The notes: generated by a model from the letters alone, not told the origin. 64,000 nucleotides of DNA from Candidatus Nanoarchaeia archaeon (GCA_035289925.1 DATDVR010000005.1:45692-109691); one strand, 5' to 3'; shown: positions 1,236 to 17,858, counted from the first letter of the stretch. A program made the numbers and translations.

Positions 1236-1268
1236 AATAAAAAATCATAATTTGGGATATATAAAAGT

Positions 1269-1733: not shown

Positions 1734-1734
1734 G

Positions 1735-2106
1735 CTACATACCGCCGGATAAAATCGTTGAAATCCTGGTTTCAAACTCCAATCTTGTCAAAACTTTGTC
1801 GCATCCTGACTTTAGGGCCTTTTCCCTCAATGAAGTCTGTGCAGGAGACAAGTAACCTACAATAGTCAAGTCAGTAGTTCTTGAATCCTTTCTTGCCTGC
1901 TCGATAAATGCCAACGGATCAAAGTTTTTCAAGTTTAAATCTATCAACAGCATCTGAGGCTTACTTTTGAAATCCCTGAAAGCTTCTGCCTTGTTCCTCA
2001 TAAAAAAAACTTCTATGCCTAGATTTCTCGCTGTCTCTGATATTCTAGAAGACAATCCAAAATCCTGGACTGCTGCCAAAATAAGCTTGTTTTTCTGCAA
2101 AAGCAT
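1735..2106 (-). CDS. CheY-like receiver-domain protein (stand-alone)
   Basis: About 120 aa with an alternating beta/alpha pattern. LLIDLNL supplies an acidic residue at the phospho-acceptor-like position, and KSGCDKVLTR resembles the receiver C-terminus. Confidence 0.5.
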   Translation of the reverse strand: MLLQKNKLILAAVQDFGLSSRISETARNLGIEVFFMRNKAEAFRDFKSKPQMLLIDLNLKNFDPLAFIEQARKDSRTTDLTIVGYLSPAQTSLREKALKSGCDKVLTRLEFETRISTILSGGM

Positions 2107-2143
2107 ACTAAAATGAAGAATGAAGTTTATATAAAGTTTTTGA

Positions 2144-2470
2144 TTAATATTTTCTTAGATAGCGCTTTATTTTTTTAAAAGCCAAATAAACTTCTTTTTT
2201 TAGTTTAGATTTATTAACATTTGACTCCTCTGCTCCATTACTTATTACTTCTTCAAGACTTTTACCAATTTTTGAAGTTGATTTAATCTTGAAGGTATCC
2301 TCAATGGTAAATTCTTCAATAAGCTCCAAAGAACTTAATGCCCTAATAATATATCGCTTAATGTCTCTTGAATTTTTATTCTTTGAATATTTATCGTCAA
2401 TAAAACCCAAGAATTTTCTGCAGTTGCCTATATTGTATCTGGTAACTTGATCTAAAACTGAATCAACCAT
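2144..2470 (-). CDS. hypothetical protein
   Basis: ORF only, with a TATA-like ATTTATAAATA upstream. It lies just outside the proposed att repeat. Confidence 0.4.
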   Translation of the reverse strand: MVDSVLDQVTRYNIGNCRKFLGFIDDKYSKNKNSRDIKRYIIRALSSLELIEEFTIEDTFKIKSTSKIGKSLEEVISNGAEESNVNKSKLKKEVYLAFKKIKRYLRKY

Positions 2471-2503
2471 GCTAATTTAGACTGATTAGAGATTTATAAA
2501 TAT

Positions 2504-2516
2504 TACGCCGCGACTG
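2504..2516. repeat. distal att-like copy of the tRNA-Ser 3' end (TACGCCGCGACTG)
   Basis: A perfect 13-mer identical to 14002-14014. The match extends to 17 of 18 nt (2499-2516 vs 13997-14014). The core is GC-rich in an AT-rich background. Confidence 0.6.
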
Positions 2517-2597
2517 TTATCCAGTTGCTTTGTCCACAGCTTAAAATATCAATTAGTATTAAATATATAAGTAAGTTATTATTTAAATGTTTCTAAA

Positions 2598-2747
2598 ATG
2601 GTTAAATTACAAAAGACAAAAAATGGCAGCTATGTCATTTCAATACCTTTAGAGAAAGTCAAAAGAAAAGGCTGGCAGAAAGGTCAGGAATTTGATGTTG
2701 AGTTCAATGAGCATGGCAGCTTAGTGCTGGTGCCTATTATGTCTTAA
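2598..2747 (+). CDS. AbrB/SpoVT (MazE-like) swapped-hairpin DNA-binding protein, 49 aa
   Basis: Hand-translated as MVKLQKTKNGSYVISIPLEKVKRKGWQKGQEFDVEFNEHGSLVLVPIMS. The pattern (K..GnSy.vsIP.e....g...G.e..ve....g.lvl.P) is the classic AbrB-domain signature. It is below the ORF-track size cut-off. Confidence 0.55.
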   Translation: MVKLQKTKNGSYVISIPLEKVKRKGWQKGQEFDVEFNEHGSLVLVPIMS

Positions 2748-3498
2748 TTTTAAATTCATAGTTAAATTGTTTGAATTGGATTTCATCGGCTACATACCCT
2801 ATCTTACAAGAGAAAGAATCAACTCCTTCCGATAGTTTGTAAATTAATACTAAACTAGAATCGTCTAAAGTATCAAGTCTACCATATTCTACTTTAAGAT
2901 ATGATTTTGATATGTCTGCTGTTTTAAATTTGCCGCGTAGGGAATATGTTACATAAAAATTAACATCTTCACAATTTAAGCTCACTACTACATTGTTAAG
3001 CCTTTTACCTACTCCCTTTATTATTAGATGGCTCTGATAGTAAAGTCCATTATCTTCTAATTCTGCTGTTTTAAATTGTCCGCAGTCAGGATTTGAAAAA
3101 ATAACACATAAAGTTTTTATTACAATACCCTCTACACTAGAGTTAAATAGATTATGATATGAAAAAGATAGGTCTGCTTTTTCTTTTTCTATTTCAGCTT
3201 TATTTAAATCAACGCCTTCTTTTGTATATTTAAGGGCTTCTTCAGATACTTGCAAACTTTTATTTGATATTTCTATTCCTTGTTTCCCTAAAGTTACACT
3301 CCAATTACTTAAATTTAAAGAGGTCTTAGCTACGTCAATGTTTGTCTGACCCCAATAATTTGTTTGATAGATTATAAAAAACGTCGTAAGTAGGGTCAAT
3401 ATTGCAATAACTAATGCCCATCCTGCTATCTTAATTGCTTTTGCAGCTAATTTATTACCTTCTGCAGCAAAAGCTTCAGGCATTCCTATTTTTATCAC
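2737..3498 (-). CDS. membrane-anchored protein of unknown function (partner of the trypco2-like gene)
   Basis: N-terminal TM helix (WALVIAILTLLTTFFIIY). A 4-nt overlap with the upstream gene implies translational coupling. Confidence 0.5.
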   Translation of the reverse strand: MIKIGMPEAFAAEGNKLAAKAIKIAGWALVIAILTLLTTFFIIYQTNYWGQTNIDVAKTSLNLSNWSVTLGKQGIEISNKSLQVSEEALKYTKEGVDLNKAEIEKEKADLSFSYHNLFNSSVEGIVIKTLCVIFSNPDCGQFKTAELEDNGLYYQSHLIIKGVGKRLNNVVVSLNCEDVNFYVTYSLRGKFKTADISKSYLKVEYGRLDTLDDSSLVLIYKLSEGVDSFSCKIGYVADEIQFKQFNYEFKIKT

Positions 3499-3812
3499 TT
3501 CTTTTTCTTTGGTTTTTCATCAAGTTTTTTTAGTTCTTCGAATACTTTTTTTAATTGAGCCTGTGCTTTCTTTGGGTCTCCAACAGAAAAGCTAACTTCT
3601 TGTGTCTGTTGGCTGGAAGCTTCACCACCTAATTTTAGGACTTTAATATCTACCCCACCATCCCCTGATTGTTCTTGAACGACTTTTAACTTAAAATCTA
3701 TATTACTTACAAGTTCAAAACCTTTAGGTAAGGCATCTTGTAGTTGGTTTATTGTGTCTCTTACAAATACTTTAATTGGACTTCCAATATCGCTGATATT
3801 ATCATCTGGCAT
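3495..3812 (-). CDS. trypco2-like small protein (conflict-system-associated domain)
   Basis: The pattern IKVFVRDTINQLQDA...FELVSNIDFKLKVVQEQSGDGGVDIKVLKLGGEASSQQTQEVSFSV resembles the trypco2 signature as I remember it: a helix, two long strands, a G-rich turn, and a second strand pair ending in a T/H-x-V-x-L-type strand. Confidence 0.45.
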   Translation of the reverse strand: MPDDNISDIGSPIKVFVRDTINQLQDALPKGFELVSNIDFKLKVVQEQSGDGGVDIKVLKLGGEASSQQTQEVSFSVGDPKKAQAQLKKVFEELKKLDEKPKKKK

Positions 3813-3914
3813 TTCTTACTCCTCTGGCAATCACCAGTTCAATTACTAAGTAAAGAACCTTTATAAAATTTATCTTATCAAAAATATTAAAAAGGCTTAA
3901 AACTTTAAATTTTT

Positions 3915-4325
3915 ATGAATAATAACCTAAATGATAAAGTTAAACATCTGGAATTAATACAAAGCATAATAAATAGAATGGCTACTAACTCGTTTATTTT
4001 AAAAGGCTGGTCTGTGACCTTAGTTACTGGGATAATCATCCTTTCTTTAAATAATAGTATAAAGAATTTTATTTATTTAGGACTCGTTCCTACATTAATT
4101 TTTTGGGGATTGGATGCTTATTATTTGAAGCAGGAAAGATTATTTAGAAAATTGTATGATGGAGTAAGGTGTAACATGAAAGGGATAGAACCTTTTTCAT
4201 TAGATACGAGGTTATTTAATAATGGATTTAAAGCATGGCTTTGCTGTTTCTTTTCATTTACACTTCTCGCCTTACATTTTGCGATAGTTTTAATAATCTT
4301 AATAACTGGGGATTATCATGGCTAG
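3915..4325 (+). CDS. small multi-TM protein, possible SLATT/DUF4231-like membrane effector
   Basis: N-terminal amphipathic helix (LELIQSIINRMATNSF), two TM helices, a conserved-looking YYLKQERLFRKLYD helix, and further TM segments. It overlaps the TIR-like gene by 8 nt. Confidence 0.55.
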   Translation: MNNNLNDKVKHLELIQSIINRMATNSFILKGWSVTLVTGIIILSLNNSIKNFIYLGLVPTLIFWGLDAYYLKQERLFRKLYDGVRCNMKGIEPFSLDTRLFNNGFKAWLCCFFSFTLLALHFAIVLIILITGDYHG

Positions 4326-4794
4326 AAGGGTATTCTTTAGCTTTCATTATGAAAGAGATGTCTGGCGTGCTGGACAAGTCAGAAATAGCTGGGTTACACA
4401 GGATAGTGCAGGATTTATAGATTCTGCTTCGTGGGAAGAAGTAAAGAAAAAAGGAAATGATGCAATAAAAAAATGGATTGCGGATGAACTTGCTGGAACT
4501 TCAGTAACCATTGTCTTAATAGGTAAGGAAACATCAGATAGGGAATGGGTTATCCATGAAATAATAGAAAGCTATAACAAGGGCAATGGTTTGATTGGTA
4601 TTTATGTTCATAATTTAAAAGATAGTCAAGGGAATGCAGATATTAAAGGAAAAAATCCTTTTGAGAATGTATATATTGAAAAGGATGGTAGGAAAAGATT
4701 TTTTTCTGAGATATATCCTACTTATGATTGGGTTAATGACGATGGTTATAACAACATTGGTAAATGGGTAGAATCTGCAGCCCCAAAAGAATAA
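4318..4794 (+). CDS. TIR-like domain protein (DUF1863 / MTH538-type, ThsB-like)
   Basis: RRVFFSFHYERDVWRAGQVRNSW ... TIVLIGKETSDREWVIHEIIES ... GLIGIYVHNL matches the DUF1863 TIR-like pattern, including the WV..EI motif. Confidence 0.75.
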   Translation: MARRVFFSFHYERDVWRAGQVRNSWVTQDSAGFIDSASWEEVKKKGNDAIKKWIADELAGTSVTIVLIGKETSDREWVIHEIIESYNKGNGLIGIYVHNLKDSQGNADIKGKNPFENVYIEKDGRKRFFSEIYPTYDWVNDDGYNNIGKWVESAAPKE

Positions 4795-4795
4795 A

Positions 4796-5083
4796 ATGTC
4801 AAAGCTCGTCCTAATAATCCTGCTTATTCAGTCAATCATAACATTTTCTATTAGCCATTATTTAGATTCTAAGGATATTCCTTCTGATGAAGTAAGTGCT
4901 GCTGTTTATGCAGGTCAACAAGTAAATAATGCAGTAGGAAACTCTACAAATGATTCTACAGTTAGACAGATAACTGCTAATATTGGTAAGGGCTATAATA
5001 ATTTTAATTCAACTATGAAGCTAGTCTCATTAATAGAGTTCATTGTAATCATTATTTTATTAGTTATCTCTTTCTTTGTATAA
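4796..5083 (+). CDS. small bitopic membrane protein (N- and C-terminal hydrophobic helices)
   Basis: It starts 1 nt after the TIR-like stop. Hydrophobic N- and C-termini flank an N/S/T-rich middle. Confidence 0.5.
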   Translation: MSKLVLIILLIQSIITFSISHYLDSKDIPSDEVSAAVYAGQQVNNAVGNSTNDSTVRQITANIGKGYNNFNSTMKLVSLIEFIVIIILLVISFFV

Positions 5084-5138
5084 TACTAAGAGAAGCATAA
5101 AATTGTGCGAAGAGAGAAATAAAATATCTCATAATATG

Positions 5139-5402
5139 CTAAGAAGGCTCAAACTTGATTGTGTTGCCAATGAATGCAACCTTACTTATTAATTTGACTT
5201 CTCTACCATCTTTCAGTTTCTGCAAAAGCCCTTCCTGCTCTAATAAAGTTACATAATCAGCACACTTTGTATATGACAGTTTCAATTTTGAACTAAGCTC
5301 ATTTATGCTTAAAGTCTCTTTTTGAATTAGCTCTAAAATACTAAATCTGAGCTCATTAGACATAACCTTAACTTTCCTAAAAAGAGCTTTATTTTGTAAC
5401 AT
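5139..5402 (-). CDS. ArsR-like winged-helix transcription regulator
   Basis: RFSILELIQKETLSINELSSKLKLSYTKCADYVTLLEQEGLLQK is a typical wHTH. The start is trimmed to Met-58 (ATG 5402-5400), and Met-71 at 5363 is also possible. The longer ORF runs into the divergent promoter. Confidence 0.6.
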   Translation of the reverse strand: MLQNKALFRKVKVMSNELRFSILELIQKETLSINELSSKLKLSYTKCADYVTLLEQEGLLQKLKDGREVKLISKVAFIGNTIKFEPS

Positions 5403-5460
5403 TACACCATAAGTAGAGTAATATTTATATATTAAATAAATACACCATTTATGGTGTAAT

Positions 5461-7032
5461 ATGGGTAAAAAGGTGATAATTCTAATTTTATTATTGGTTA
5501 CTATATCTGCTTGTAGCAAAACAAATTTACAAGAAGTTAATAATAATTTAGAAAAAGAATTAGAAGAAGTCAAGAATGAAGCACCAACTCAGGATTATGA
5601 AGCTCCAGTTCAAAATTATGAAGAGAAATGTACTATAGAGTTCTTTCATTGTGAGGAGTTCACCATAAATCCCGATGGTACTGCGACTCTTATAATAAAA
5701 AATGAAATTGGAAAAACTTTGACTGACTTTACTTTAAGCCTTGAAAGTGTTGCTGGAACTTGTAGTCCCCTCTACTGGGCTGGAACCTACTGGTATGAAG
5801 ACACATGGTTAAAGTGCGATTTCATAGGATTAGAAACTGGATTAGGGAAGACTTATAATTTAGATATTAAGTTAACATATTCTGAAAGAGGGAAGAGTGA
5901 TAGGATATCTGAGTTTGGCAAGTTAAGTAAACAAATAAAATCTGATGAAGTAAAGAATGGTCAACTTAATGGGAAAATAGAAAATAGTCCTATAAGTAAT
6001 ATTGAAACAAATAAAAAGCCAGAAGTCTCATTTGAAATAAAAGTTGTAAATAATGGATTGTCAGCCCTCACGTTATTTGCTAACAGGAAGCTTTTACATT
6101 ATGGCAGCTATTTAATTTCTGAGCCATTAATAAAATTGAATATAGTTTCAGATGAAAAAAATAATATTAAAAATGCAGTATTAAACTTACAATTTAATGA
6201 CTTTTCAAATGTTGAAACAATTGAAGTTGGCGATATAACCAAAAAAATAAATGATTGCGAAGAAAATTGTAAACAGCCTCAATACCGCAACGGTTACTTA
6301 ATTTGTCTTAAAGATTTTCATTGTGATACTGTAGAAATTGATTGGAATCCAACAATGAAAGAGAATATTTTAGAAGTTAGGTCTGAGATAGTAGTTCCAA
6401 TAACTGCTATCTTAAGCTATGAAGATTCTGAAGGTAATGTTTACTCAGATAAAAAAGTTGTAAATTACCAGCTTCTTCCAGTTGATAAAGCCAAAAGATT
6501 TGGTGGCTCTGGCAAAGACATGGAACTTTACTATGGAATGTTTATTACTCCTTATGCTGTTGAAGATTTTGCAAAAAACAAAGTTTCTTTTTCAATAAAC
6601 AATAAAGAAGATGTCAATAATGCTGTTAGAAATATCTACAACTCTTTAAAAGAATCAGGAGTAAGTTATAGTACAGAAAGAAAAGAAGCAGACTTACAGT
6701 CACCAGCAATGACTTTAAGATTAAAACAAGGCAAGTGCGATGAATCTTCTTTATTGATTTCATCTTTATTAGAATCGTTAGGCATTAAGACTAAATTAAT
6801 TGCTTATACTCGTCCTAATGCCCTGATTGGGCATATGTTTATAGTTTATTATGATACAGAGAACTGGATTCCATTGGAAACAACAACCATCTCTACTAAC
6901 AGTTTTGAAGAATCTTTAGAAGTTGGCAAAATTAATTTAAAAGAATCTGAAAACGATAAATGGAGTTATGTTATAGATTTACGAGAAATATTGGCTAAAG
7001 GGATTACACCTCCTTATTCTAAGAAAGAATAA
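5461..7032 (+). CDS. lipoprotein with a pilin-head-like N-domain and a C-terminal transglutaminase-like Cys-protease core
   Basis: Lipobox (LLLVTISAC). The N-domain aligns with pilin 37779..38234 (F.C.eF.i..DGT.T.IIkN.IGK.L.D..L..ESV..TC......W....L.C.F.GL.TG). The C-terminus GKCDESSLLISSLLESLGI...IGHMFIVYYD...WIPLETT gives a C/H/D-E triad pattern. Confidence 0.7.
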   Translation: MGKKVIILILLLVTISACSKTNLQEVNNNLEKELEEVKNEAPTQDYEAPVQNYEEKCTIEFFHCEEFTINPDGTATLIIKNEIGKTLTDFTLSLESVAGTCSPLYWAGTYWYEDTWLKCDFIGLETGLGKTYNLDIKLTYSERGKSDRISEFGKLSKQIKSDEVKNGQLNGKIENSPISNIETNKKPEVSFEIKVVNNGLSALTLFANRKLLHYGSYLISEPLIKLNIVSDEKNNIKNAVLNLQFNDFSNVETIEVGDITKKINDCEENCKQPQYRNGYLICLKDFHCDTVEIDWNPTMKENILEVRSEIVVPITAILSYEDSEGNVYSDKKVVNYQLLPVDKAKRFGGSGKDMELYYGMFITPYAVEDFAKNKVSFSINNKEDVNNAVRNIYNSLKESGVSYSTERKEADLQSPAMTLRLKQGKCDESSLLISSLLESLGIKTKLIAYTRPNALIGHMFIVYYDTENWIPLETTTISTNSFEESLEVGKINLKESENDKWSYVIDLREILAKGITPPYSKKE

Positions 7033-7191
7033 TATATAATAAGAAAAGAGCAGACGAGAGAGAGAAATATAATATTAAGAATAACGAAGCAAATTCACGC
7101 ACACCCACAACCAACGCCAACAACAATAGATAAGTTATTATAATTAAAGTCTAGGCATAACTTACAGCTGGCTTAATAATGAAAAGGATAT

Positions 7192-8208
7192 TTAATATTT
7201 TATTACAGTATCTGGATATTTTTGATAACTAAAGGGATATGTTTTAAAAATTTCTTGATGATATATGTTCCTGCCCTTCATTTCAATTGTTTGGCAATCT
7301 CTATCTTTATGTAGGATATATTTTTTTATTTTTGAGTCTAATTCACCATATTTTCCTTCAAGTTTCTTTATTATTTGCTTTGTTTTATTATAATCCTCAC
7401 CATAATTGTTAAATCCCATTTTTTTAAATTCATTTAATAAATATTTTAAACTTTCTTCACCATAATAATCAATTATTTTTTTAACAAGATACTCTGATGT
7501 TTCATAAGCGAGATTATCCCATTGAATCTTTTCATCTAAAGAAAATGCCAGATTATTTAATTTTTCTTTTTCATAAGCCCATGCAGAGATACAATAAAGC
7601 TCATCTTGAGGATAAAGAATTCTCTTATTTTTTATTGTATCCGCTACATATTGTGCTATTCCTGCTTCTAACCATCTTGGTAGATAAAGGTCTTCAATAT
7701 AACTGTCGGTAATTCCATGAATAATTCTAACATCATCATAAGAAGTTTCTAATTTACCTTGAAGATAAATACCCCCATCTATGTAATAACTAAAGAATAT
7801 TCTTGCTTCAGGTAAAGAATAAGTTTTAGCTGCTTCACTAAAACCAATTATATAAAATTTATAGGTTGATTCTAGACCTGTAATGTCTGTTATTTTATTT
7901 AATTCTTTACAAGTATCCTGCAAATTAAAAGCCCAACTAGTATAAATTGATTTATAATCTTTTTTAGAAATTAAAAATTTATCGCATACTTCAATATATT
8001 CCTCCGTTATATTAAATTTTAGTGGTATCTTTTTTGTTATTTCTTCAGTTTTATTAGCGGATTCATTAAATTTATGTTTTAAATCAGTAGTATTTTCTAG
8101 AACTTTATTAATTATTTTATTATCCTTGATTTCATAATGATTATTGCATCCTGACATAAAAGTTAATAATAAAATAAGAAAAACAATAAAAAATATTTTA
8201 AAAGTCAT
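7192..8208 (-). CDS. lipoprotein, unknown function
   Basis: Signal plus lipobox (LLLTFMSGC). It has a WLEAGIAQYVA motif reminiscent of MA-clan peptidase-like proteins, but no HExxH. Confidence 0.5.
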   Translation of the reverse strand: MTFKIFFIVFLILLLTFMSGCNNHYEIKDNKIINKVLENTTDLKHKFNESANKTEEITKKIPLKFNITEEYIEVCDKFLISKKDYKSIYTSWAFNLQDTCKELNKITDITGLESTYKFYIIGFSEAAKTYSLPEARIFFSYYIDGGIYLQGKLETSYDDVRIIHGITDSYIEDLYLPRWLEAGIAQYVADTIKNKRILYPQDELYCISAWAYEKEKLNNLAFSLDEKIQWDNLAYETSEYLVKKIIDYYGEESLKYLLNEFKKMGFNNYGEDYNKTKQIIKKLEGKYGELDSKIKKYILHKDRDCQTIEMKGRNIYHQEIFKTYPFSYQKYPDTVIKY

Positions 8209-8211
8209 AGA

Positions 8212-8532
8212 CTATCTGTTTCTCCATTCAATCTGATGCTTTGTATGCAAACTAGGAACATTTCTATAAAACCATACTTTTATGGCAATTAAACCTACAA
8301 TAAAGAAAACTATTGAAAAAAACAGAACCCACATTCTAAATTCAGTTACATTATTTCCAAATAAATTATTATTAAAAAAAGCTCTAAGTAAAATAATTCC
8401 TATAAGGATTGAACCACCAGATGAAATTAAGGGATGTCTTCTGCAAAACCAGTTTAATTTTTTAAATAAAGAAGGTCTAAAATGCCTTTTATGAAATCGA
8501 TGTCTAAATCTTCTATTTCTATGCCTTCCCAT
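8212..8532 (-). CDS. small basic membrane protein
   Basis: Arg/His-rich N-terminus followed by two hydrophobic helices. It lies 3 nt upstream of the lipoprotein gene. Confidence 0.45.
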   Translation of the reverse strand: MGRHRNRRFRHRFHKRHFRPSLFKKLNWFCRRHPLISSGGSILIGIILLRAFFNNNLFGNNVTEFRMWVLFFSIVFFIVGLIAIKVWFYRNVPSLHTKHQIEWRNR

Positions 8533-8593
8533 AGAGAAATAACTAGCTTTTTGCTATATAATCTTTTCCATCTTGCTATTAATAACTAAAGAA

Positions 8594-9403
8594 CTATTTT
8601 TTTATTCTGTAGAAATACTGTCCAACAAAATAAATAATTTCTGTCTTACCTTCATATCTATTTACAAATGAGCTTCCTTTTTCTGCTAATTTTTGCATAT
8701 CTTGAGAACTTTTAACTTCAATTAGTCCTTTGATATCAGGTAAATTTTTAACATTTATTATTTTAGATAATTCAATCCCTTCATCAGCAGGAATTCCGTT
8801 TTCAATTAGTACGGCTTTTTTTATAACTTTTAAATTTGTATTTTCAGTAATCACCAACGATTGATTAGCTGGGTTAGCATCAACAACAATAAACTTTAAT
8901 CCTCCAAATCCAGAATTGCCCATAAAACCTTCTTCAAATACATTAAAAATTTCCTCAAAAGGGCTTCCAGTAGTACTCTTTTTTCTTTTTCTAGTTCCGC
9001 CAGAAATAATAAGGTCTCCTTTGACAAGGGGTCTTCCAATTAGACTTTTCTTGAAAATAAATGGGTCTGCTTGAATCATTACACCTTGCTGTGCAGGCGC
9101 AATTGTAATTGACTTTGCTTCTTTAACATCTGCTTTCCTTATTCTAACATAGTCTCCAATCCCAGTTTTAGCATTTCTTCTTATTATGCCATCAATTCTC
9201 ATTATCTCTTGCCCAATATCAGAAGGATAGGCTCTATCAACAATGCCTAATGTAATCCTATCGCCTTCTATTTCAATAATGTCACTTGGCTTAACATTTA
9301 TTTCCCTCATAGTCTGGCTGTCAATCCTTACTATTCCTTTGTAAGCTTCTTCTTGCAAAGCTTCCTGTACTTTCAACCTAACTTCTTGTGTTTTTGTTTT
9401 CAT
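8594..9403 (-). CDS. stand-alone Cdc48/VAT N-terminal domain protein (no AAA+ module) with an uncharacterised C-domain
   Basis: VRLKVQEA..EAYKGIVRIDSQTMREINVKPSDIIEIEG.. ..MRIDGIIRRNAKTGIGDYVRIRK..V.EAKSITIAP is the double-psi-barrel signature of Cdc48-N. The start is trimmed to MKTKTQ (ATG 9403-9401). Confidence 0.7.
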   Translation of the reverse strand: MKTKTQEVRLKVQEALQEEAYKGIVRIDSQTMREINVKPSDIIEIEGDRITLGIVDRAYPSDIGQEIMRIDGIIRRNAKTGIGDYVRIRKADVKEAKSITIAPAQQGVMIQADPFIFKKSLIGRPLVKGDLIISGGTRKRKKSTTGSPFEEIFNVFEEGFMGNSGFGGLKFIVVDANPANQSLVITENTNLKVIKKAVLIENGIPADEGIELSKIINVKNLPDIKGLIEVKSSQDMQKLAEKGSSFVNRYEGKTEIIYFVGQYFYRIKK

Positions 9404-9914
9404 TTTGTTTTTTAGTTTTGTAAAAGTATTCATCAACAATAAAAATTAATTGAGTCTTATCTTCATAACAATTAACAAAAGAATAAGTTTCTATCAACTT
9501 TTTTAAGTCTTCTATGCTTCTTAGTTCTATTAAATTAGAAGTATCTGGTAAAGATTTTATATAAACAACTTTAGACTTGGGCATACCGTTATTATCTATA
9601 GCTTCGTGGTTTACATTAATTATGGTATTTTCAGTTATTTTCACTTCGCCCTTTGGTTCAGTAGAATTAACAAAGAAAGTAATTGAGCTGAAAAAACCTG
9701 CAAAGTTTTCAAATATTTCTTCAAATTGTCCTTTAGATTTTCTTGGTTTTTTATCAGGTTCTATTAAATCACCTTCTTTTATGACTTTACCAATTAAACT
9801 ATTTTTGAAATGATTTAAAGCTTCAATATAAACAGTTATTTTTACTCCTTCTATTGGACTTAAAGTAACTTCTTTTGCTTCAACACTTTTTGTCTTTTTT
9901 AAGAATTCTAGCAT
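9378..9914 (-). CDS. paralogue of the C-terminal domain of 8594..9403 with a degenerate N-domain
   Basis: The C-terminal halves align (ITENT..V....A....NG.P......I.....LPD...LIE..S..D..KL.E..SFVN.YE.KT..I..V..YFY..KK). Confidence 0.55.
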   Translation of the reverse strand: MLEFLKKTKSVEAKEVTLSPIEGVKITVYIEALNHFKNSLIGKVIKEGDLIEPDKKPRKSKGQFEEIFENFAGFFSSITFFVNSTEPKGEVKITENTIINVNHEAIDNNGMPKSKVVYIKSLPDTSNLIELRSIEDLKKLIETYSFVNCYEDKTQLIFIVDEYFYKTKKQNENKNTRS

Positions 9915-9958
9915 GATATTTAATTCATCTAATAAATATATAACCCTTTCTATCTTTC

Positions 9959-10126
9959 CTAAAGCGTTCTTGAACGTTCTTTATGTCTCTCAAGATATAA
10001 TTTAGCCTTATCAGGATGAAGCCTGTTAAAATGCCTCTGTCTGCAATATGAAGAACAAAAGATTTTCCGGCTTACCTCGCTTTTGATTTCAATGTCCTTA
10101 AAACAGGTTTTGCATTTACGAAACAT
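9959..10126 (-). CDS. 55-aa zinc-ribbon protein
   Basis: Hand-translated as MFRKCKTCFKDIEIKSEVSRKIFCSSYCRQRHFNRLHPDKAKLYLERHKERSRTL, with CxxC...CxxxC. It starts 2 nt after the upstream stop and is below the ORF-track cut-off. Confidence 0.45.
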   Translation of the reverse strand: MFRKCKTCFKDIEIKSEVSRKIFCSSYCRQRHFNRLHPDKAKLYLERHKERSRTL

Positions 10127-10128
10127 TT

Positions 10129-10443
10129 TTAGTGTCCTCCAACCCTTGACAAGCTAAATAAACCTTTATTTGTGCCAGAATCTGGATTTAGGAAACAATC
10201 TCTACATACTTTTTCATTTGCCTTACCAAAATCTACATGATTAGTGTCTTCCTTTATATTTCTCTTACAGCAAAAACACTTTGGATAGACAGGCTCTGAT
10301 GCCTTCACGATTGTTATATCAGCTATCTTTTTAGCAATAGCCTCGTCTGCGATTCCTGAAAGGTTTAGCCCAAATTTTTTAGCTTCTTGTAGTGTTTCAT
10401 AATCAATTGATAGATTTACAGGTATTTTTCTTTTTTCAACCAT
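10129..10443 (-). CDS. RHH/CcdA-like antitoxin-type N-domain fused to a Cys-rich Zn-binding tail
   Basis: VNLSIDYETLQEAKKFGLNLSGIADEAIAKKI matches the 'NlsldaeLl.eAk..giNlS' antitoxin pattern. The tail is CFCC...CRDC. The start is trimmed to Met-12. Confidence 0.5.
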   Translation of the reverse strand: MVEKRKIPVNLSIDYETLQEAKKFGLNLSGIADEAIAKKIADITIVKASEPVYPKCFCCKRNIKEDTNHVDFGKANEKVCRDCFLNPDSGTNKGLFSLSRVGGH

Positions 10444-10485
10444 AGTCAAAACCCGAATGCATATATGCGTGTGCATATGCGCATA

Positions 10486-10704
10486 TCATTTTTTAGTCAC
10501 TCCTAAAATTTTTGAATTCTCTTGTGAAAGTTCAATCTCTTTCAATAATCCAAGAGTTATCAATTCCTTACAGTAAGAAGACAACGAAATTCCACGTTTG
10601 CGGGAGTTTTCTTTTACCAGACTTAAAATAGTGATTTCATTAAGGCTTCTTTGAAGTAATATTTGAATCCTATCATTTCCAATCCAAGTTTGTAATCTTG
10701 CCAT
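10486..10704 (-). CDS. small hypothetical (possibly DNA-binding) protein
   Basis: ORF only. Same strand as the neighbouring small genes and tightly spaced with them. Confidence 0.35.
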   Translation of the reverse strand: MARLQTWIGNDRIQILLQRSLNEITILSLVKENSRKRGISLSSYCKELITLGLLKEIELSQENSKILGVTKK

Positions 10705-10823
10705 TTTTGAGTATAAAGCTTTTAAAGTCTAAAGAATTAACAGCTATTGGTTAAATGCTGCAATTCTTTTTTCTTTATTTTTTGGTGTTTGAATTTACAT
10801 TGCCAAGCAACTCTCTTAACCAT

Positions 10824-10985
10824 TCAGGTAACTCCATCTTTGACCCCCTTAATTTCTAAATAATTATAAATCAAAAGTCTAATCAAACCAGCAACAGAAC
10901 GTTGCTGTAGTTTGGCTTTTTGTTGTAGTTTCAAAACTACTGATTTATCCAGTCTTACACAAAAGTTGATTTTTGCTTCAGTCAT
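10824..10985 (-). CDS. 53-aa ribbon-helix-helix (CopG/Arc-type) protein
   Basis: Hand-translated as MTEAKINFCVRLDKSVVLKLQQKAKLQQRSVAGLIRLLIYNYLEIKGVKDGVT. It reads as a beta-strand (INFCVRLD) followed by two helices with the RS..gLIr motif. It is below the ORF-track cut-off. Confidence 0.5.
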   Translation of the reverse strand: MTEAKINFCVRLDKSVVLKLQQKAKLQQRSVAGLIRLLIYNYLEIKGVKDGVT

Positions 10986-11044
10986 TTTATATTAAAGAGA
11001 GAGATTTATATATAGTTTTAACCAACTTACACTGGTGTGTAACA

Positions 11045-11584
11045 ATGAAGAAGAAACCAATAATCAAAGACCATATTATTTCTTACAGAACCGATAAAAA
11101 AGCAGCATTTTTGATGTGTCTAATATTGGCTGCCATGGAAAATAAAGGTATAGTTGATATGAGCACCATAAAAATAAAAGCAAAAAAAGAAGGATATAAA
11201 GGATTAGGATATAGTGCTACAATATTCAATAATTACAAAGATGAGTTGGTAAGGAAAGGTATTTTAAAAAAGTTAAAGAATTATGGTGAAAAGGATTTAA
11301 GAAAGCAAATTTATCAATTAAATTTAAAAAAATTTGATAATTATATAGAAAGGTATAACGAAGAAACAAAAGAAAATACTTCTCTAAATAAGGCACTAAA
11401 GATTTCATTATTGTTAGATTTGTTGAACGAAATTCCATATTCTAAAAAATTAATAGAGCAGCTTAAGCAGGAAATCATTAATAAAAATAAGATTGATGAA
11501 AAAACGATGAATAAATATGATAAGCTATATCAAGAAACTGGAAAGAAAGTAATACACCGTTTAATTTTCGAGCTTAAGAGTTAA
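11045..11584 (+). CDS. winged-helix-like protein, unknown function
   Basis: The start is trimmed to ATG 11045, because the track start at 10973 is TTG and overlaps the RHH gene. DELVRKGILKKL is wHTH-like. Confidence 0.45.
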   Translation: MKKKPIIKDHIISYRTDKKAAFLMCLILAAMENKGIVDMSTIKIKAKKEGYKGLGYSATIFNNYKDELVRKGILKKLKNYGEKDLRKQIYQLNLKKFDNYIERYNEETKENTSLNKALKISLLLDLLNEIPYSKKLIEQLKQEIINKNKIDEKTMNKYDKLYQETGKKVIHRLIFELKS

Positions 11585-11616
11585 GAGCAAGTGAATTAAG
11601 GGTATTAAAAGAATTT

Positions 11617-12108
11617 TTAAGAGGGATAACATTTCATTTTTTCTTTAGATAAACTGGAGCCATCTACTTTAATCTTTACACAGATATTCTTTATAGGCTT
11701 GGAGTGATTGTCAATACCTGTTATGTAAAATATAAACTTCCATTCACCTTTGTTGCTAAAACTCTGTTGTAAATAGGTCTTTTCACACCTTTTTTTGATA
11801 TCTATTGGCTCTGGAACAATACTCAGACAGGTAATATTGTAGTCATTAGGGCTTTCACTTGGAAAGATGTATAAATCCGTATATTTTTGGTCATTATATG
11901 TGTTCTTTATTAAAAATTCAAGTTTCCCATCGTTAAAATTTAAACCACGTATTGAGAGCGGATTATAATTTAATGTATCATAAATCAGATTATCTCCGTA
12001 ATTAATCCAAAATGTGAGCAACACTGCAACGACAAAAATTGAGCTACCCCATTTAACAATTGGTTTTTCAGCAGCATGCTTAAAGAAGGCTATAATTTTA
12101 TTCATCAT
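11617..12108 (-). CDS. membrane-anchored/secreted protein, unknown
   Basis: N-terminal TM helix. A 4-nt overlap with the upstream lipoprotein gene. Confidence 0.45.
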   Translation of the reverse strand: MMNKIIAFFKHAAEKPIVKWGSSIFVVAVLLTFWINYGDNLIYDTLNYNPLSIRGLNFNDGKLEFLIKNTYNDQKYTDLYIFPSESPNDYNITCLSIVPEPIDIKKRCEKTYLQQSFSNKGEWKFIFYITGIDNHSKPIKNICVKIKVDGSSLSKEKMKCYPS

Positions 12109-12551
12109 CTTGTTATAGTTATATCTACAGATTGGCTACTGTAAACTATTGTGCCTTCTTGATTGCTTAAAACCAATAAAATCTTTTGAGTTCCATAGCA
12201 ACCTTCTTTATAAGCTTCCCATCTATTACCAACTGTTGGTGAGACTTTGACAGAATAAGAATCTTCTTTCTTGTCAATCTTAACATTAACCTTTGTCTCT
12301 TCCTCACTTAATCTTATACATTCTTTATTATATTGATAAGAAACTTTTCCTGTAAAGTCTAAGTTTGTTGGATTTTTTATAGTATAAATAAGAGTTACAA
12401 CTTTATTGAAATCATCAACATATTCGCTTGGTTTTAAATAACTAGGCTCTGCTTTTGTTCCTTCTGGCGTGAATGCAGGGCTAGTTTGGCAACCAGAAAA
12501 CAAAAAAGATAGCAATATCATCAACATAATAATTTTATAATTTATTCTCAT
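12105..12551 (-). CDS. lipoprotein, unknown
   Basis: Signal plus lipobox (LLSFLFSGC). Confidence 0.5.
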   Translation of the reverse strand: MRINYKIIMLMILLSFLFSGCQTSPAFTPEGTKAEPSYLKPSEYVDDFNKVVTLIYTIKNPTNLDFTGKVSYQYNKECIRLSEEETKVNVKIDKKEDSYSVKVSPTVGNRWEAYKEGCYGTQKILLVLSNQEGTIVYSSQSVDITITR

Positions 12552-12632
12552 TTTAACCTCCTAAGGCTAAGATTTACTATAATTTCAGCAATATAAAGTT
12601 TTTTGTTTGCAAAATTATGGTATAACTAAATT

Positions 12633-13940
12633 CTAGTTTCCTACAACTTCTTTAATCTTCTGCAACAATTCAATGCTTTTAGGCTGCTTTGACAGCTCTT
12701 TAGTCCTTTCCTTAATAACTTCATCTTCCATTATCAAATTAATAAAATCCATTATTCTTGCATTTTTGTTGTCCAAAGCTTCTACAGCATCCATACTTGA
12801 AAGCTTATTGCAAAAAGGACAAATTGGCTTGTCTTCCAATAAAACTTTATGGCAGCTTATACACTTCTTTAGCTTCTTGATTCCATTTGTTCTGTCTAAA
12901 ATGCCTTGACTTTCGAGTAAAGCATTATTTGCATCAGCAGAAACTACATGGCTATAAGTGCTTAACTGCGAACTGTCGAGTGTCCAGCCAAAATAAGCTT
13001 TAGCTTGCTGTTCCCCAATTATTTTATTGGCTAATAAATGTGAAACCCTGCTATGTCTAAACAGATGATTGTAAACTCTCTTATTTATCCCTGCTCTTGC
13101 TGTTAACCTCTTGATTGTCTTTGTAAAGCTTGCGTAACCTAACTTCTCGCCCCTGTTCCTATCTTTGCTTTTATGGCTTATTTCTACAACCCATAAAGGA
13201 CTATCAGCTTTTGGAACTGGATGATGCTGCAGCCAAGCATCAATGTAAGGAGCAGACATTATAGCAATTACAGTTCGTTGACCTGTTTTTCCATTCAAAT
13301 CAATCTCATAAACAGAGTTTTTCTTTCCTTTTGCTTCATATTCTTTTCTTGTTAGGTTCTTAATTTTCAGATTGCCAACTTCGCTAATCCTAGCCCCAGT
13401 TTCATACAGCACAGAAAGAAAGGCTTTATGTTGGATGTTTGTTGCAGCTTCTATAATCCTTGAAACTTCTTCTTCTGTCAAGATGTCAGAAGCAGCTATC
13501 TTTTTCTGATTTTTCTTCTTTATGTAAGTGTTAATCCATTCTACATTTTCAGGATAATCTTTTCTATTGAAAGCTTTGTCTCTGAAAGTAAGCCATCTTC
13601 CAAATTTCTTTAAGATTACTTTGAACTTGGCCTTTGTGTCCTCGCTGTAAAGTTTACCTAATGGAGTTTTGCCTTCTTCTATTCCAATAATTATGTTTTC
13701 ATAGTCCTGTTTTGTAAGCTTGTCAAAGTCTTTTTTAACCCATTTGTTAGAAATAGTAATCAAGCTGTCAATATACTTGATTCTTGTTGCAAATTCAAGG
13801 TTTTCAACTATTGTGCATTTCCTTTCAAATTCTAAAATCAAGTCCTTGTTTACCTTACTTATGCTTGAAGCTTGCAATCTTTCTTTAACTCTTTCATAGA
13901 TGCCTTTGTAATTGTATAAGTCCTGTTCTTGCTTTGCCAT
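12633..13940 (-). CDS. tyrosine recombinase/integrase with a C-terminal zinc ribbon
   Basis: ETGARISEV (Arg box), HLFRHSRVSHL (HxxR) and the LSTYSHV catalytic-Tyr region, plus CISCH...CPFC. It sits adjacent to tRNA-Ser. The start is trimmed to MAKQEQ (ATG 13940-13938). Confidence 0.85.
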   Translation of the reverse strand: MAKQEQDLYNYKGIYERVKERLQASSISKVNKDLILEFERKCTIVENLEFATRIKYIDSLITISNKWVKKDFDKLTKQDYENIIIGIEEGKTPLGKLYSEDTKAKFKVILKKFGRWLTFRDKAFNRKDYPENVEWINTYIKKKNQKKIAASDILTEEEVSRIIEAATNIQHKAFLSVLYETGARISEVGNLKIKNLTRKEYEAKGKKNSVYEIDLNGKTGQRTVIAIMSAPYIDAWLQHHPVPKADSPLWVVEISHKSKDRNRGEKLGYASFTKTIKRLTARAGINKRVYNHLFRHSRVSHLLANKIIGEQQAKAYFGWTLDSSQLSTYSHVVSADANNALLESQGILDRTNGIKKLKKCISCHKVLLEDKPICPFCNKLSSMDAVEALDNKNARIMDFINLIMEDEVIKERTKELSKQPKSIELLQKIKEVVGN

Positions 13941-14003
13941 ATCATTTACCTGTCCTTTCGTGCTTAAAAAACTGATACTAAAAGATATGGACAAAGAATA
14001 ATA

Positions 14004-14087
14004 CGCCGCGACTGGGATTTGAACCCAGATATCCTTTCGGAAACAGGATTAGCAATCCTGCGCGATACCAGGTTATGCGATCGCGGC
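14004..14087 (-). tRNA. tRNA-Ser (anticodon GCU), class II with a long variable arm
   Basis: The reverse complement folds as acceptor GCCGCGA/TCGCGGC, anticodon stem CAGGA/TCCTG with loop TTGCTAA, variable arm TTTCCGAAAGGATAT, and T-arm CTGGG-TTCAAAT-CCCAG. The discriminator is G. Confidence 0.85.
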
Positions 14088-14129
14088 ACAGCCTAAACAG
14101 GATATAAATGATTTATAAAACTTTAGCTT

Positions 14130-14336
14130 TTAAGTCAATTCTACTTCCCAGACTTCTTCATTATAATTAGAATCAAACTTTTTAATTATTAAAATAACTC
14201 CTTTTTTACTTAAACTTGAAAGAACTTCCTTTACCTTTGCTGTCTTAAAACCTGTGGTAAGAATCAATTGTCTGGAATTAGAATTTCCATCCTTGATGCC
14301 TTCAATAATTATTTCCTCATCTTGAGAAAGAATCAT
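14130..14336 (-). CDS. small winged-helix-like protein
   Basis: NSRQLILTTGFKTAKVKEVLSSLSKKGVI resembles an HTH plus wing. Confidence 0.4.
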   Translation of the reverse strand: MILSQDEEIIIEGIKDGNSNSRQLILTTGFKTAKVKEVLSSLSKKGVILIIKKFDSNYNEEVWEVELT

Positions 14337-14352
14337 AAAAAAAGAAAGGGGA

Positions 14353-14586
14353 TTATTTCCCCATCATCATGCTAGAGCAACTGCCGCAGTATCCCTTGCA
14401 TTTTAGCATCTTTCCAATTGCCCAAACTAAGATTCCACCTGCATAGTAAGCAAGTATCATCCACAAGGCATAGCTCTGGGTCTGTGCTATGAAGCCTTTT
14501 ACAAATAGAAATACACCTACTGCCATGACGATTACTCCTATAACCATCATGAACCAATTGCATTCGCATTTTCCTGCTTTAGCCAT
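14353..14586 (-). CDS. small Cys-rich two-TM membrane protein
   Basis: The start is trimmed to MAKAGKCECNWF. Two hydrophobic helices are flanked by CxC and CxxxCxxC clusters. Confidence 0.45.
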   Translation of the reverse strand: MAKAGKCECNWFMMVIGVIVMAVGVFLFVKGFIAQTQSYALWMILAYYAGGILVWAIGKMLKCKGYCGSCSSMMMGK

Positions 14587-14667
14587 TATACATACCTCCT
14601 TAAAATATGTTTTAAAATATAACGGAATAGGACTATATAAAGTTTTTTGTAAGCTTTGCACATAAAT

Positions 14668-15732: not shown

Positions 15733-15870
15733 CAGATAATTTAATAAGTAATTTTCATTTATAAGTCTTCATAAGGTGTTTGTCACGTGTCTATATTCTG
15801 CAGCATATAATTTATGTGCAAAGTCATTTTTGTAGAAAGGTTTAAAAAGCTACTTTGAGACTTAAAAATT

Positions 15871-17507: not shown

Positions 17508-17539
17508 GTTATTTAAACAATCAAAAGTTAGAAATTTAT

Positions 17540-17857: not shown

Positions 17858-17858
17858 T

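What the first reader, a model, noticed from the sequence alone, without database searches (positions are those of the whole stretch)
2499..14014. ~11.5 kb integrated element at tRNA-Ser bounded by a duplicated tRNA 3' end
TACGCCGCGACTG at 14002-14014 is the last 11 nt of tRNA-Ser(GCU) plus 2 flanking nt. It recurs perfectly, in direct orientation, at 2504-2516, and the match extends to 17 of 18 nt. A GC-rich 13-mer repeated by chance in this AT-rich DNA is unlikely.

A tyrosine integrase (12633-13940) lies immediately inside the tRNA-proximal repeat. This is the classical attL-int...attR layout.

The interior holds only accessory-type genes: RHH, AbrB, wHTH and Zn-ribbon proteins, a TIR-like cassette, a trypco2-like pair, Cdc48-N proteins and five lipoproteins or secreted proteins. 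I recognised no capsid, replication or conjugation genes, so the element type is unclear.
Basis: partly seen in the sequence, partly recalled or inferred. Interest (0 to 1): 0.6.

Follow-up and report, generated by a model that had tools for sequence, protein, structure and literature searches.

The report
Integrated mobile island at tRNA-Ser
An 11.5-kb piece of mobile DNA, carrying its own integrase and mostly anti-virus and cell-surface genes, sits at the end of the only tRNA-Ser(GCU) gene of a tiny DPANN archaeon; it is a small, capsid-less and replication-gene-less member of a common kind of archaeal integrated element.

Summary
The 13-mer TACGCCGCGACTG occurs only twice in the 916-kb genome: at the 3' end of the single tRNA-Ser(GCU) gene (14002-14014) and at 2504-2516. 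The match is 17/18 with flanks. An intact tyrosine integrase (12633-13940) starts 63 nt from the tRNA end.

Integrase homologues occur in 47 of 240 genomes of the same order. In 17 of 26 fetched loci they lie beside, or 7-13 kb from, a tRNA gene (once RNase P RNA). In 10 loci, a 12-23 nt GC-rich repeat of that RNA's 3' end bounds a 5-18 kb segment. Joining the two inner ends of the window's element (the predicted attP) brings a 9-bp inverted repeat to either side of the core. Five relatives have 8-15 bp arms in the same position.

Only the integrase is shared between elements. The window's cargo is a PDC-M50 TIR defence pair, a Trypco2 pair, small regulators, lipoproteins and two host-derived gene fragments. 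No capsid, ATPase, replication or conjugation gene was detected.

It fits the class of cryptic integrated elements. This is a new member of a known kind, of moderate interest.

The parts
2504..2516 (+). It is a copy of the last 11 nt of tRNA-Ser(GCU) plus 2 nt. The match extends to 2499-2516 (17/18).
14002..14014 (+). tRNA-proximal att core (attR). It overlaps the 3' acceptor strand and discriminator of tRNA-Ser(GCU).
14004..14087 (-). tRNA-Ser(GCU), the only gene for this isoacceptor in the genome. It is intact, with acceptor stem GCCGCGA/TCGCGGC.
   Evidence: sequence read
12633..13940 (-). Tyrosine integrase, 435 aa. The gene is intact after integration. The family-invariant R184, K218, H292, R295 and Y329 and the near-invariant W319 are all present, as is a C-terminal four-Cys zinc ribbon (C360, C363, C374, C377).
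13988..13996 (+). TGGACAAAG: arm of a 9-bp inverted repeat, 5 nt inside the proximal core. It pairs with 2528-2536 once the ends are joined (predicted attP).
   Evidence: sequence
2528..2536 (+). CTTTGTCCA: the other arm of the inverted repeat, 11 nt inside the distal core.
   Evidence: sequence
2598..2747 (+). AbrB/MazE-like 49-aa protein at the element border.
   Evidence: phrog_661; MazE/PemI, 5.5e-4, below cut-off
2737..3812 (-). Trypco2-like 105-aa protein (3495-3812) overlapping a 253-aa N-terminally anchored protein of unknown fold (2737-3498).
   Evidence: Trypco2 1.4e-4, just below cut-off; AF2 model poor
3915..4794 (+). Two-gene defence candidate PDC-M50: a membrane protein (PDC-M50A, 2.6e-45) and a ThsB-type TIR protein (PDC-M50B 3.5e-64; ThsB 1.1e-68).
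4796..5083 (+). 95-aa protein with hydrophobic N and C termini. No family match.
5139..5402 (-). Winged-helix regulator (HTH_24).
5461..7032 (+). 523-aa lipoprotein. Its N-terminal domain is 41-46% identical to the globular domain of chromosomal pilin-like proteins. Its C-terminal part is a transglutaminase-like core.
7192..8532 (-). 338-aa lipoprotein (weak Peptidase_MA_2 match) and a 106-aa protein with a basic N-terminus and two hydrophobic segments.
8594..9914 (-). Two stand-alone Cdc48 N-domain proteins without an ATPase. The 281-aa one is 70-77% identical to the N-terminus of the host's own Cdc48.
9959..11584 (.). Cluster of small regulators: Zn-ribbon 55 aa, CcdA-like RHH with Cys motifs 115 aa, 72 aa, RHH 53 aa. 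A divergent 179-203-aa ORFan has no homologue in 5.8 billion proteins.
11617..12551 (-). 163-aa membrane-anchored protein and 148-aa lipoprotein. No family match.

Best explanation
Bases 2504-14014 (11,511 bp counting both core copies) are an integrated mobile element. It entered by site-specific recombination, catalysed by its own tyrosine integrase. The recombination joined an attP on a circular form of the element to the 3' end of the chromosomal tRNA-Ser(GCU) gene (attB).

The exchange took place inside a 13-bp identical core. The tRNA is therefore rebuilt at the integrase end, and a partial tRNA copy is left at the far end. The integrase gene stays whole (the lambda or 'classical' archaeal mode).

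In attP the core is flanked by a 9-bp inverted repeat, which is the likely integrase binding pair.

The element has no detectable replication, virion or transfer genes. It is therefore copied passively with the chromosome and is best filed as a cryptic integrated element or genomic island. Its cargo is mainly conflict and cell-surface genes: the PDC-M50 TIR pair, the Trypco2 pair, lipoproteins and host-derived Cdc48-N decoys. The regulatory cluster at 9959-11584 probably controls integrase and cargo expression.

Shown: the repeats, the integrase, the family habit and the cargo identities. Inferred: the circular intermediate, the binding role of the inverted repeat, and present-day activity.
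For: - The 13-mer is unique to the two ends in the whole genome.
- The integrase is intact and carries all family-invariant catalytic residues.
- Relatives in the same order. The integrase family occurs in 47 of 240 genomes. In 26 fetched loci, 14 have a tRNA gene (one of these RNase P RNA) ending just upstream of int, and 3 have the tRNA at the far end. In 10 loci a 12-23 nt repeat of that RNA's 3' end bounds 4.8-17.9 kb.
- Two close and two more distant relatives also use tRNA-Ser(GCU): L076, L116, L148.
- In 80 more loci from named genomes, 28 of 73 with enough upstream DNA have a same-strand tRNA ending 42-177 nt before int. The chance expectation is under 1%.
- Predicted attP inverted repeats. 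The window has 9 bp (12/300 shuffles). L057, L062, L064 and L066 have 10-15 bp (0-1/300). attB controls reach only 4-7 bp.
- Element GC is 30.3% against 33.4% for the genome, in the lowest 2.4% of windows.
- Host-core synteny (PF1765-like, dph5, receiver-domain gene) stops left of the element.
- Only the integrase is shared between family elements. Their cargo is restriction-modification, toxin-antitoxin, reverse transcriptase and primase-helicase genes.
- Short att cores of 8-17 bp are documented for other archaeal integrated elements (PMC6563490, PMC8371274).
Against: - No empty site and no circular junction was seen. About 40 contigs from at least 10 other assemblies of the same population are 99-100% identical and all occupied.
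- A metagenome pattern scan for all four junction types returned nothing, but near-identical records are withheld there.
- The 9-bp inverted repeat in the window is only marginally beyond chance on its own (12/300).
- Tetranucleotide deviation is modest (top 13%).
- The left-flank 108-aa gene is itself an orphan, so the ancestral attB context is not independently known.
Confidence: 0.88

Rival explanations
1. It is a provirus or a virus satellite. It would be an integrated genome of an unknown small DPANN virus whose structural proteins are unrecognisable, or a capsid-less satellite that borrows a helper virus. The lipoproteins and small membrane proteins would be virion or entry components.
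For: - The size (11.5 kb) and layout (integrase, a divergent cluster of small repressors, many orphan membrane or secreted proteins) resemble small archaeal temperate viruses.
- 7 of 20 ORFs have no family match at E<=0.01 in any library they were scanned against (Pfam for all; PHROGs, NCBIfam or PADLOC for most).
- One ORF has no homologue at all.
Against: - No capsid, portal, terminase or packaging/morphogenesis ATPase was found by Pfam or PHROGs.
- There is no P-loop NTPase of any kind.
- tblastn of two cargo proteins against 50,697 phage and archaeal-virus records found nothing.
- IMG/VR holds no relative of the integrase.
- Ten relatives' elements show no virion genes among their commonest families.
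- The genome has no CRISPR array that could give spacer evidence.
Confidence: 0.1
2. It is a fossil island. It entered as described but is now fixed and immobile, kept for its cargo, and the integrase no longer excises it.
For: - All other assemblies of the population carry it in the same place, with no variation at the junctions.
- There is no replication gene to maintain a free form.
Against: - The unconstrained distal core is still a perfect 13/13 (17/18 with flank).
- The integrase ORF and its catalytic residues are intact.
- The split inverted repeat is perfect.
- Contigs report only the majority form, so rare excision would be invisible.
- One scaffold has a gap exactly at the attL core and one contig stops inside the attR core. 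This could reflect junction heterogeneity.
Confidence: 0.35
3. It is a chance repeat next to an unrelated chromosomal recombinase. On this view there is no element, and the block is ordinary lineage-specific DNA.
For: The repeat is only 13 nt long. No empty site is available.
Against: - None was expected by shuffling, and the 13-mer is unique in 916 kb.
- It coincides exactly with a tRNA 3' end adjacent to an integrase.
- The same arrangement is found in at least 10 relatives.
- The genome has a separate XerA-like gene at C6:92310-92732.
Confidence: 0.02

Closest known systems
Cryptic integrated elements (CIE) of Thaumarchaeota (Krupovic et al. 2019, PMC6563490)
   Same: - Integrase plus att direct repeats are the only defining features.
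- Sizes are mostly under 20 kb.
- att sites are short (8-26 bp, median 17).
- tRNA genes are frequent targets.
- Cargo is variable and includes restriction-modification and other accessory genes.
- There are no virion or conjugation genes.
   Different: - The host phylum differs (a DPANN Nanoarchaeota-type genome).
- The integrase belongs to a family with a C-terminal four-Cys zinc ribbon.
- The window's element lacks even the replication genes that many CIE carry.
PYG1 genomic island of Pyrococcus yayanosii and other 'classical' (type II, lambda-paradigm) archaeal integrase elements (review PMC8371274)
   Same: - The integrase gene stays intact after integration.
- The island has no identified replication module.
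- Integration is at a tRNA gene.
   Different: - PYG1 excision has been shown experimentally; here it has not.
- att cores of Sulfolobales and Methanococcales elements are 40-60 bp, against 13 bp here.
- The pNOB8 subfamily motif is R..YxxR..Y, whereas this integrase has HxxR.
Archaeal XerA recombinase (PDB 4a8e, 5hxy)
   Same: It is the closest solved structure and NCBIfam model to the catalytic domain.
   Different: - The match scores 62.7 bits against a cut-off of 220, so it is not XerA.
- The protein is about 150 aa longer.
- It has a zinc-ribbon tail.
- It is element-borne and lies next to a tRNA.
Thoeris / PADLOC candidate system PDC-M50 (cargo only)
   Same: Both genes match the PDC-M50A and PDC-M50B models end to end. 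The TIR protein matches ThsB models.
   Different: - There is no ThsA (SIR2 or Macro) effector, so it is not canonical Thoeris.
- Its function as a defence system is only a database candidate.
- Homologues at 63-73% identity are spread over bacteria and archaea.

Membership tests
Tyrosine recombinase (Phage_integrase, PF00589) | Catalytic domain with the R-K-H-x-x-R-[H/W]-Y residues | tested here: met
   Pfam 6.5e-18. R184, K218, H292, R295 and Y329 are invariant, and W319 is nearly invariant, in a 19-sequence alignment. All are present in the window's protein.
Classical (type II, lambda-paradigm) archaeal integrase element | The att site lies outside the integrase ORF, and the gene is intact in the integrated state | tested here: met
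   The ORF 12633-13940 is uninterrupted. The core lies 61 nt upstream of the ATG.
Classical (type II, lambda-paradigm) archaeal integrase element | Direct repeats (attL/attR) that overlap the target gene and restore it | tested here: met
   The 13-nt core is the tRNA-Ser 3' end, and the tRNA is intact.
Classical (type II, lambda-paradigm) archaeal integrase element | Demonstrated integration or excision (attB and attP forms) | not testable with these tools
Near-identical metagenome records are withheld. All contigs are occupied.
pNOB8 integrase subfamily | Motif R...YxxR...Y (She et al., as quoted in PMC8371274) | tested here: not met
   The protein has H292-L-F-R295, which is HxxR.
SSV-type (type I, 'suicidal') integrase element | The integrase gene is split by integration, with att inside the ORF | tested here: not met
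   The ORF is intact and the core is outside it.
Cryptic integrated element (PMC6563490) | Integrase and att present; no virion, conjugation or casposase genes | tested here: met
   Pfam, PHROGs, NCBIfam and PADLOC scans of the ORFs. The absence is limited by the sensitivity of profile searches.
Provirus | Capsid protein, packaging or morphogenesis ATPase, or portal/terminase | tested here: not met
   No such Pfam or PHROG match. tblastn against phage records found nothing. AF2 models of two orphan ORFs were too poor to search, so cryptic folds are not excluded.
Integrative-conjugative element | VirB4/VirD4-type ATPase and mating-pore genes | tested here: not met
   No ATPase of any kind among the ORFs.
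Thoeris defence system (cargo) | ThsB TIR protein together with a ThsA effector (SIR2 or Macro) | tested here: not met
   ThsB matched at 1.1e-68. The partner matches PDC-M50A, not ThsA.
PADLOC candidate PDC-M50 (cargo) | Adjacent A and B genes | tested here: met
   A at 2.6e-45 (3915-4325) and B at 3.5e-64 (4318-4794), with an 8-nt overlap.

The most novel reading that the evidence does not exclude
The element may be one tip of a large, barely described clade of zinc-ribbon-tailed tyrosine integrases. These would move small defence and 'host-mimic' islands among DPANN and other archaea, using minimal 12-17 bp cores at the 3' ends of tRNA genes (once RNase P RNA) in either orientation, with palindromic arms in attP.

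The window's copy, with no replication or virion genes, would be a satellite-like parasite. It carries a 70-77% identical copy of the host Cdc48 substrate-recognition domain and a pilin-domain/transglutaminase lipoprotein. On this reading it manipulates host proteostasis and cell-surface contact, and depends on a helper element for spread.
Probability: 0.15. Interest if true: 0.6.

Novelty: new member of a known kind. Interest (0 to 1): 0.35.

Why it matters
The boundaries of this island are now exact. That lets the unusual cargo be read as mobile, accessory genes rather than core DPANN biology. This cargo includes a cross-domain TIR defence pair, stand-alone copies of the host's Cdc48 N-domain, and a pilin-domain lipoprotein.

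The family-level pattern gives a practical rule for delimiting similar islands in fragmentary DPANN genomes. The rule is a very short tRNA-end core, either orientation, and palindromic attP arms. Standard island finders need long repeats, and tRNA finders miss intron-rich genes.

The integration mechanism itself is conventional.

Tried and rejected
**Searches for the empty site or a free form**
- Empty site in relatives. The genome is the only member of its genus. The left-flank 108-aa protein has no homologue in 60 relatives. Host synteny (PF1765-like, dph5, receiver gene) is kept in the family, but no tRNA-Ser lies beside it.
- Other assemblies of the same population. Five exact-protein look-ups covered about 40 contigs, all occupied and 99-100% identical.
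- One degenerate pattern matching attL, attR, attB and attP in metagenome contigs gave 0 hits. Near-identical records are withheld.
- CRISPR spacer evidence. The genome has no array.

**Searches for viral or plasmid relatives**
- IMG/VR scan with the integrase: no relative.
- tblastn of the Cdc48-N protein and the 203-aa ORF against phage records: nothing.
- The 179-aa ORF has no homologue in 5.8 billion proteins.
- AF2 single-sequence models of 2737-3498 and 11045-11584 had pLDDT 49 and 57. They were too poor for a fold search, so none was run.

**Other checks**
- Rfam scan of 1-18000 at E<=0.1 found only the tRNA.
- Other repeats inside the element are AT-rich chance matches.

**Rejected classifications**
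- SSV-type integration (gene not split).
- pNOB8 subfamily (HxxR, not YxxR).
- Integrative-conjugative element (ICE) and provirus (no hallmark genes).


Full report
**Observation**

The window carries two tRNA genes. tRNA-Ser(GCU) lies at 14003-14088(-) by ARAGORN and at 14004-14087(-) by Rfam, 50.9 bits.

The 13-mer TACGCCGCGACTG is found only at 2504-2516 and 14002-14014, both in the same orientation. None was expected in 100 dinucleotide-preserving shuffles. In the whole assembly (915,979 bp, 16 contigs, 88.5% complete) these are the only two copies. The nearest 2-mismatch hit is the 3' end of another tRNA gene, and tRNA-Ser(GCU) is single-copy.

Read from the sequence, 2499-2516 and 13997-14014 agree at 17 of 18 positions. 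Bases 14004-14014 are the discriminator and the 3' acceptor strand (TCGCGGC-G, pairing with GCCGCGA at the 5' end), so the tRNA is intact.

ORF 12633-13940(-) is a tyrosine recombinase: Pfam PF00589 at 6.5e-18 and phrog_1 'integrase' at 2.2e-20. Its ATG lies 63 nt from the tRNA end.

**Host and surroundings**

The genome is small (0.9 Mb), AT-rich (33.4% GC) and archaeal, with diphthine synthase just left of the element. It is the only species of its genus in the genome set. One genome of the same order is the record titled 'Nanoarchaeota archaeon SCGC AAA011-G17': L057 and L172 share contig length and coordinates. This is therefore a DPANN archaeon. Record names of identical contigs point to aquifer metagenomes.

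Left of the element, the genes PF1765-like, dph5, a membrane protein and a receiver-domain protein are syntenic in family relatives. The 108-aa gene next to the distal core is an orphan.

**Comparative evidence that this is how the integrase family behaves**

The integrase has more than 200 homologues in the protein collection, at 49% identity or less. It is present in 47 of 240 genomes of the order, a patchy distribution.

I fetched 20 loci from those genomes and 6 from metagenome contigs.

- In 14 of the 26, a structured-RNA gene ends just upstream of the integrase start, on the same strand as in the window. These are L052, L053, L054, L057, L059, L060, L063, L064, L067, L072, L074, L076, L077 (tRNA) and L066 (archaeal RNase P RNA).
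- In three more (L062, L065, L068) the tRNA lies at the far end, with its 3' end facing inward.

In ten loci the longest direct repeat between the integrase-proximal 500 nt and the downstream DNA is a GC-rich 12-23-mer. It is exactly the 3' end of that RNA, directly following the T-arm sequence, and it bounds 4.8-17.9 kb:

| Locus | Core | Core length (nt) | Bounded segment (kb) | Target |
|---|---|---|---|---|
| L054 | CCCTGCCTCGGCG | 13 | 15.4 | tRNA |
| L057 | ATCTCGGCTGGAGCA | 15 | 7.7 | tRNA |
| L062 | not listed | 16 | 12.1 | tRNA-Thr |
| L063 | GGGCGTTGGCGT | 12 | 12.1 | tRNA-Ser(GGA) |
| L064 | not listed | 17 | 12.8 | tRNA |
| L065 | not listed | 14 | 12.6 | tRNA |
| L066 | not listed | 14 | 11.9 | RNase P RNA |
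| L067 | not listed | 14 | 17.9 | tRNA |
| L068 | not listed | 13 | 7.0 | tRNA-Ser(UGA) |
| L076 | not listed | 23 | 4.8 | tRNA-Ser(GCU) |

The integrase of L076 is 46-48% identical to the window's and uses the same isoacceptor.

In a further 80 loci from named genomes, 28 of the 73 with at least 250 nt upstream have a same-strand tRNA ending 42-177 nt before the integrase. All 28 are in records titled as archaea. Two more are at tRNA-Ser(GCU) (L116, with an 18-nt repeat and a 4.8-kb element, and L148). With about 35-45 tRNA genes per megabase, chance adjacency is below 1%.

**A second signature: the predicted attP**

I joined the two inner flanks in silico. In the window, the 9-mer TGGACAAAG (13988-13996) and its complement CTTTGTCCA (2528-2536) then lie 5 and 11 nt either side of the core. 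In the chromosome these two are 11.4 kb apart.

Alone this is only marginal: 12 of 300 shuffles reach 9 bp. The same construction, however, gives 10 bp (L057), 15 bp (L062), 12 bp (L064), 13 bp (L066) and 8 bp (L054). For the four longest arms, 0-1 of 300 shuffles reach the observed value. The matching attB constructs give only 4-7 bp.

Inverted binding sites around a crossover region are the standard core architecture of tyrosine recombinase sites (established knowledge). I infer that these arms bind the integrase.

**The integrase**

An alignment of 19 family members has invariant R184, K218, H292, R295 and Y329 and near-invariant W319. It also has four invariant cysteines (C360, C363, C374, C377) forming a C-terminal zinc-ribbon-like tail. 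Some sources annotate this tail as 'ribosomal protein L40E'. All of these residues are present in the window's copy.

The nearest solved structures are archaeal XerA (4a8e at 7e-9; 5hxy). The XerA NCBIfam model scores 62.7 bits against a cut-off of 220, so the protein is XerA-like in fold but is not XerA. A separate 272-aa recombinase ORF elsewhere in the genome (C6:92310-92732) is the likelier XerA.

The gene is intact in the integrated state. This is the classical (type II) mode, not the SSV-type mode. The HxxR motif differs from the YxxR of the pNOB8 subfamily as quoted in PMC8371274.

**Cargo**

Only the integrase is shared among eleven delimited elements.

Relatives carry the following:
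- Prim-pol plus AAA_25 helicase genes (L063-L065), D5-like primase-helicase (L062, L066) and a weak Rep_1 (L074).
- Type I and other restriction-modification genes, HNH nucleases, MazE, Fic and RadC.
- A reverse transcriptase with an RT-16 RNA.
- No virion family appears among the commonest 25 Pfam or PHROG families.

The window's element carries the following:
- A complete PDC-M50 candidate defence pair: A at 2.6e-45, B at 3.5e-64, ThsB at 1.1e-68. Its TIR protein has more than 5,600 homologues at up to 73% identity in both bacteria and archaea.
- A weak Trypco2 protein coupled to a 253-aa membrane-anchored protein.
- AbrB/MazE-like, RHH, CcdA-like, Zn-ribbon and winged-helix regulators.
- Lipoproteins with transglutaminase-like and weak Peptidase_MA-like domains.
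- Two stand-alone Cdc48 N-domain proteins.

Two cargo genes are host-derived. The 281-aa Cdc48-N protein is 70-77% identical to the N-terminus of the chromosomal Cdc48 ORF. Residues 62-158 of the 523-aa lipoprotein are 41-46% identical to the globular domain of three chromosomal pilin-like genes.

No ORF matches a capsid, portal, terminase, ATPase, replication initiator, primase, helicase or conjugation protein.

Element GC is 30.3%, in the lowest 2.4% of 11.5-kb windows. Tetranucleotide distance is in the top 13%.

**Mechanism, and what is inferred**

Shown:
- The duplicated tRNA end.
- The intact, catalytically complete integrase next to it.
- The family-wide recurrence of the layout.
- The cargo identities.

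Inferred:
- A circular intermediate carried attP, made of the core plus the inverted arms.
- Int-mediated exchange took place within the 13-bp core, at the 3' end of tRNA-Ser(GCU).
- The tRNA was restored by the element-borne core.
- The element is inherited passively, because it has no replication gene.
- Control comes from the divergent RHH/wHTH cluster.

Whether it still excises is open. The perfect unconstrained distal core, the perfect arms and the intact integrase speak for recent or continuing activity. Uniform occupancy in about 40 contigs speaks for fixation, although contigs show only the majority form. Assembly breaks at the att cores hint at heterogeneity: an N-gap immediately left of the attL core in a 99.3% variant scaffold and a contig ending inside the attR core. 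These prove nothing.

**Comparison with what is known**

The closest described category is the 'cryptic integrated element' of Krupovic et al. 2019 (PMC6563490). It is defined by integrase plus att, a median size of 17 kb, att sites as short as 8 bp (median 17), and no signature genes.

The review of archaeal tyrosine recombinases (PMC8371274) lists att sites of 8-13 bp in several archaea. It also describes the PYG1 island, which excises without having a replication module.

A 2024 survey of DPANN viruses and mobile elements (Wu et al., Nat Microbiol, cited in PMC13573593) could not be read here, so prior description of this integrase family cannot be excluded.

Earlier notes of this scan report similar tRNA-integrated islands with 12-nt cores in either orientation in other DPANN genomes. 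They agree with this report but are not independent evidence.

**Verdict**

It is a new member of a known kind. Interest is moderate (0.35) and lies mostly in the cargo and in the compact att architecture, not in the integration itself.

**Tool note**

Noticed in passing
window 8594-9439(-) and G000:C6:132802-133530: The element's stand-alone Cdc48 N-domain protein is 70-77% identical over about 210-250 aa to the N-terminus of the host's own Cdc48/VAT ORF. It looks like a recently captured host gene fragment and a possible decoy for Cdc48 substrates or adaptors.
   Followed up: partly
window 5461-7032(+) vs window 37779-38234(-) and G000:C8:41273-42075: Residues 62-158 of the element lipoprotein are 41-46% identical (E 7e-22) to the globular domain of three chromosomal pilin-like proteins. 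Here the domain is fused to a transglutaminase-like core.
   Followed up: partly
L066:18119-18418(-) (G210:C45): A relative of the integrase sits next to the archaeal RNase P RNA gene (Rfam, 148 bits). The 14-nt direct repeat TTACACTTGCCTAC is that gene's 3' end. The second copy is 11.9 kb away, and the predicted attP has a 13-bp inverted repeat. This points to integration into an RNase P RNA gene rather than a tRNA gene.
   Followed up: partly
L057:1923-9608 (= L172, record titled Nanoarchaeota archaeon SCGC AAA011-G17): A 7.7-kb element of the same family contains an Rfam RT-16 RNA (L057:7379-7514, 101 bits). A reverse transcriptase (RVT_1) matched one ORF among the ten related elements scanned together, but one search does not say which element it lies in.
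   Followed up: no
L092:1330-1345 (scaffold of SAMN03842430) and L021 start (= window 14010): A 99.3%-identical variant scaffold has a run of N exactly at the left edge of the attL core. One contig from another assembly stops inside the attR core. These are assembly breaks at both att sites, of unknown cause.
   Followed up: no
L097-L176: The zinc-ribbon integrase family also occurs in records titled as bacteria (Acidobacteriota, Planctomycetota incl. a 2.6-Mb chromosome, Omnitrophota, Elusimicrobiota). There, none of the loci has a tRNA upstream. These are either a different target habit or mis-binned contigs.
   Followed up: no
window 14668-15732(-) and 15871-16592: Just right of the tRNA-Ser lie a solo TnpB (OrfB_IS605/Cas12f-like) and a 189-aa ORF (16023-16592). 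Earlier notes of this scan read the latter as LAGLIDADG-like, next to a multi-intron initiator tRNA. The region around the element is a small hotspot of mobile DNA.
   Followed up: no
L078 vs L079: Two contigs encode the identical integrase P0011 but differ upstream of it. One carries TIR_2, HEPN and SLFN/AlbA genes and the other only the SLFN/AlbA pair. This is variable defence content beside the same integrase.
   Followed up: no
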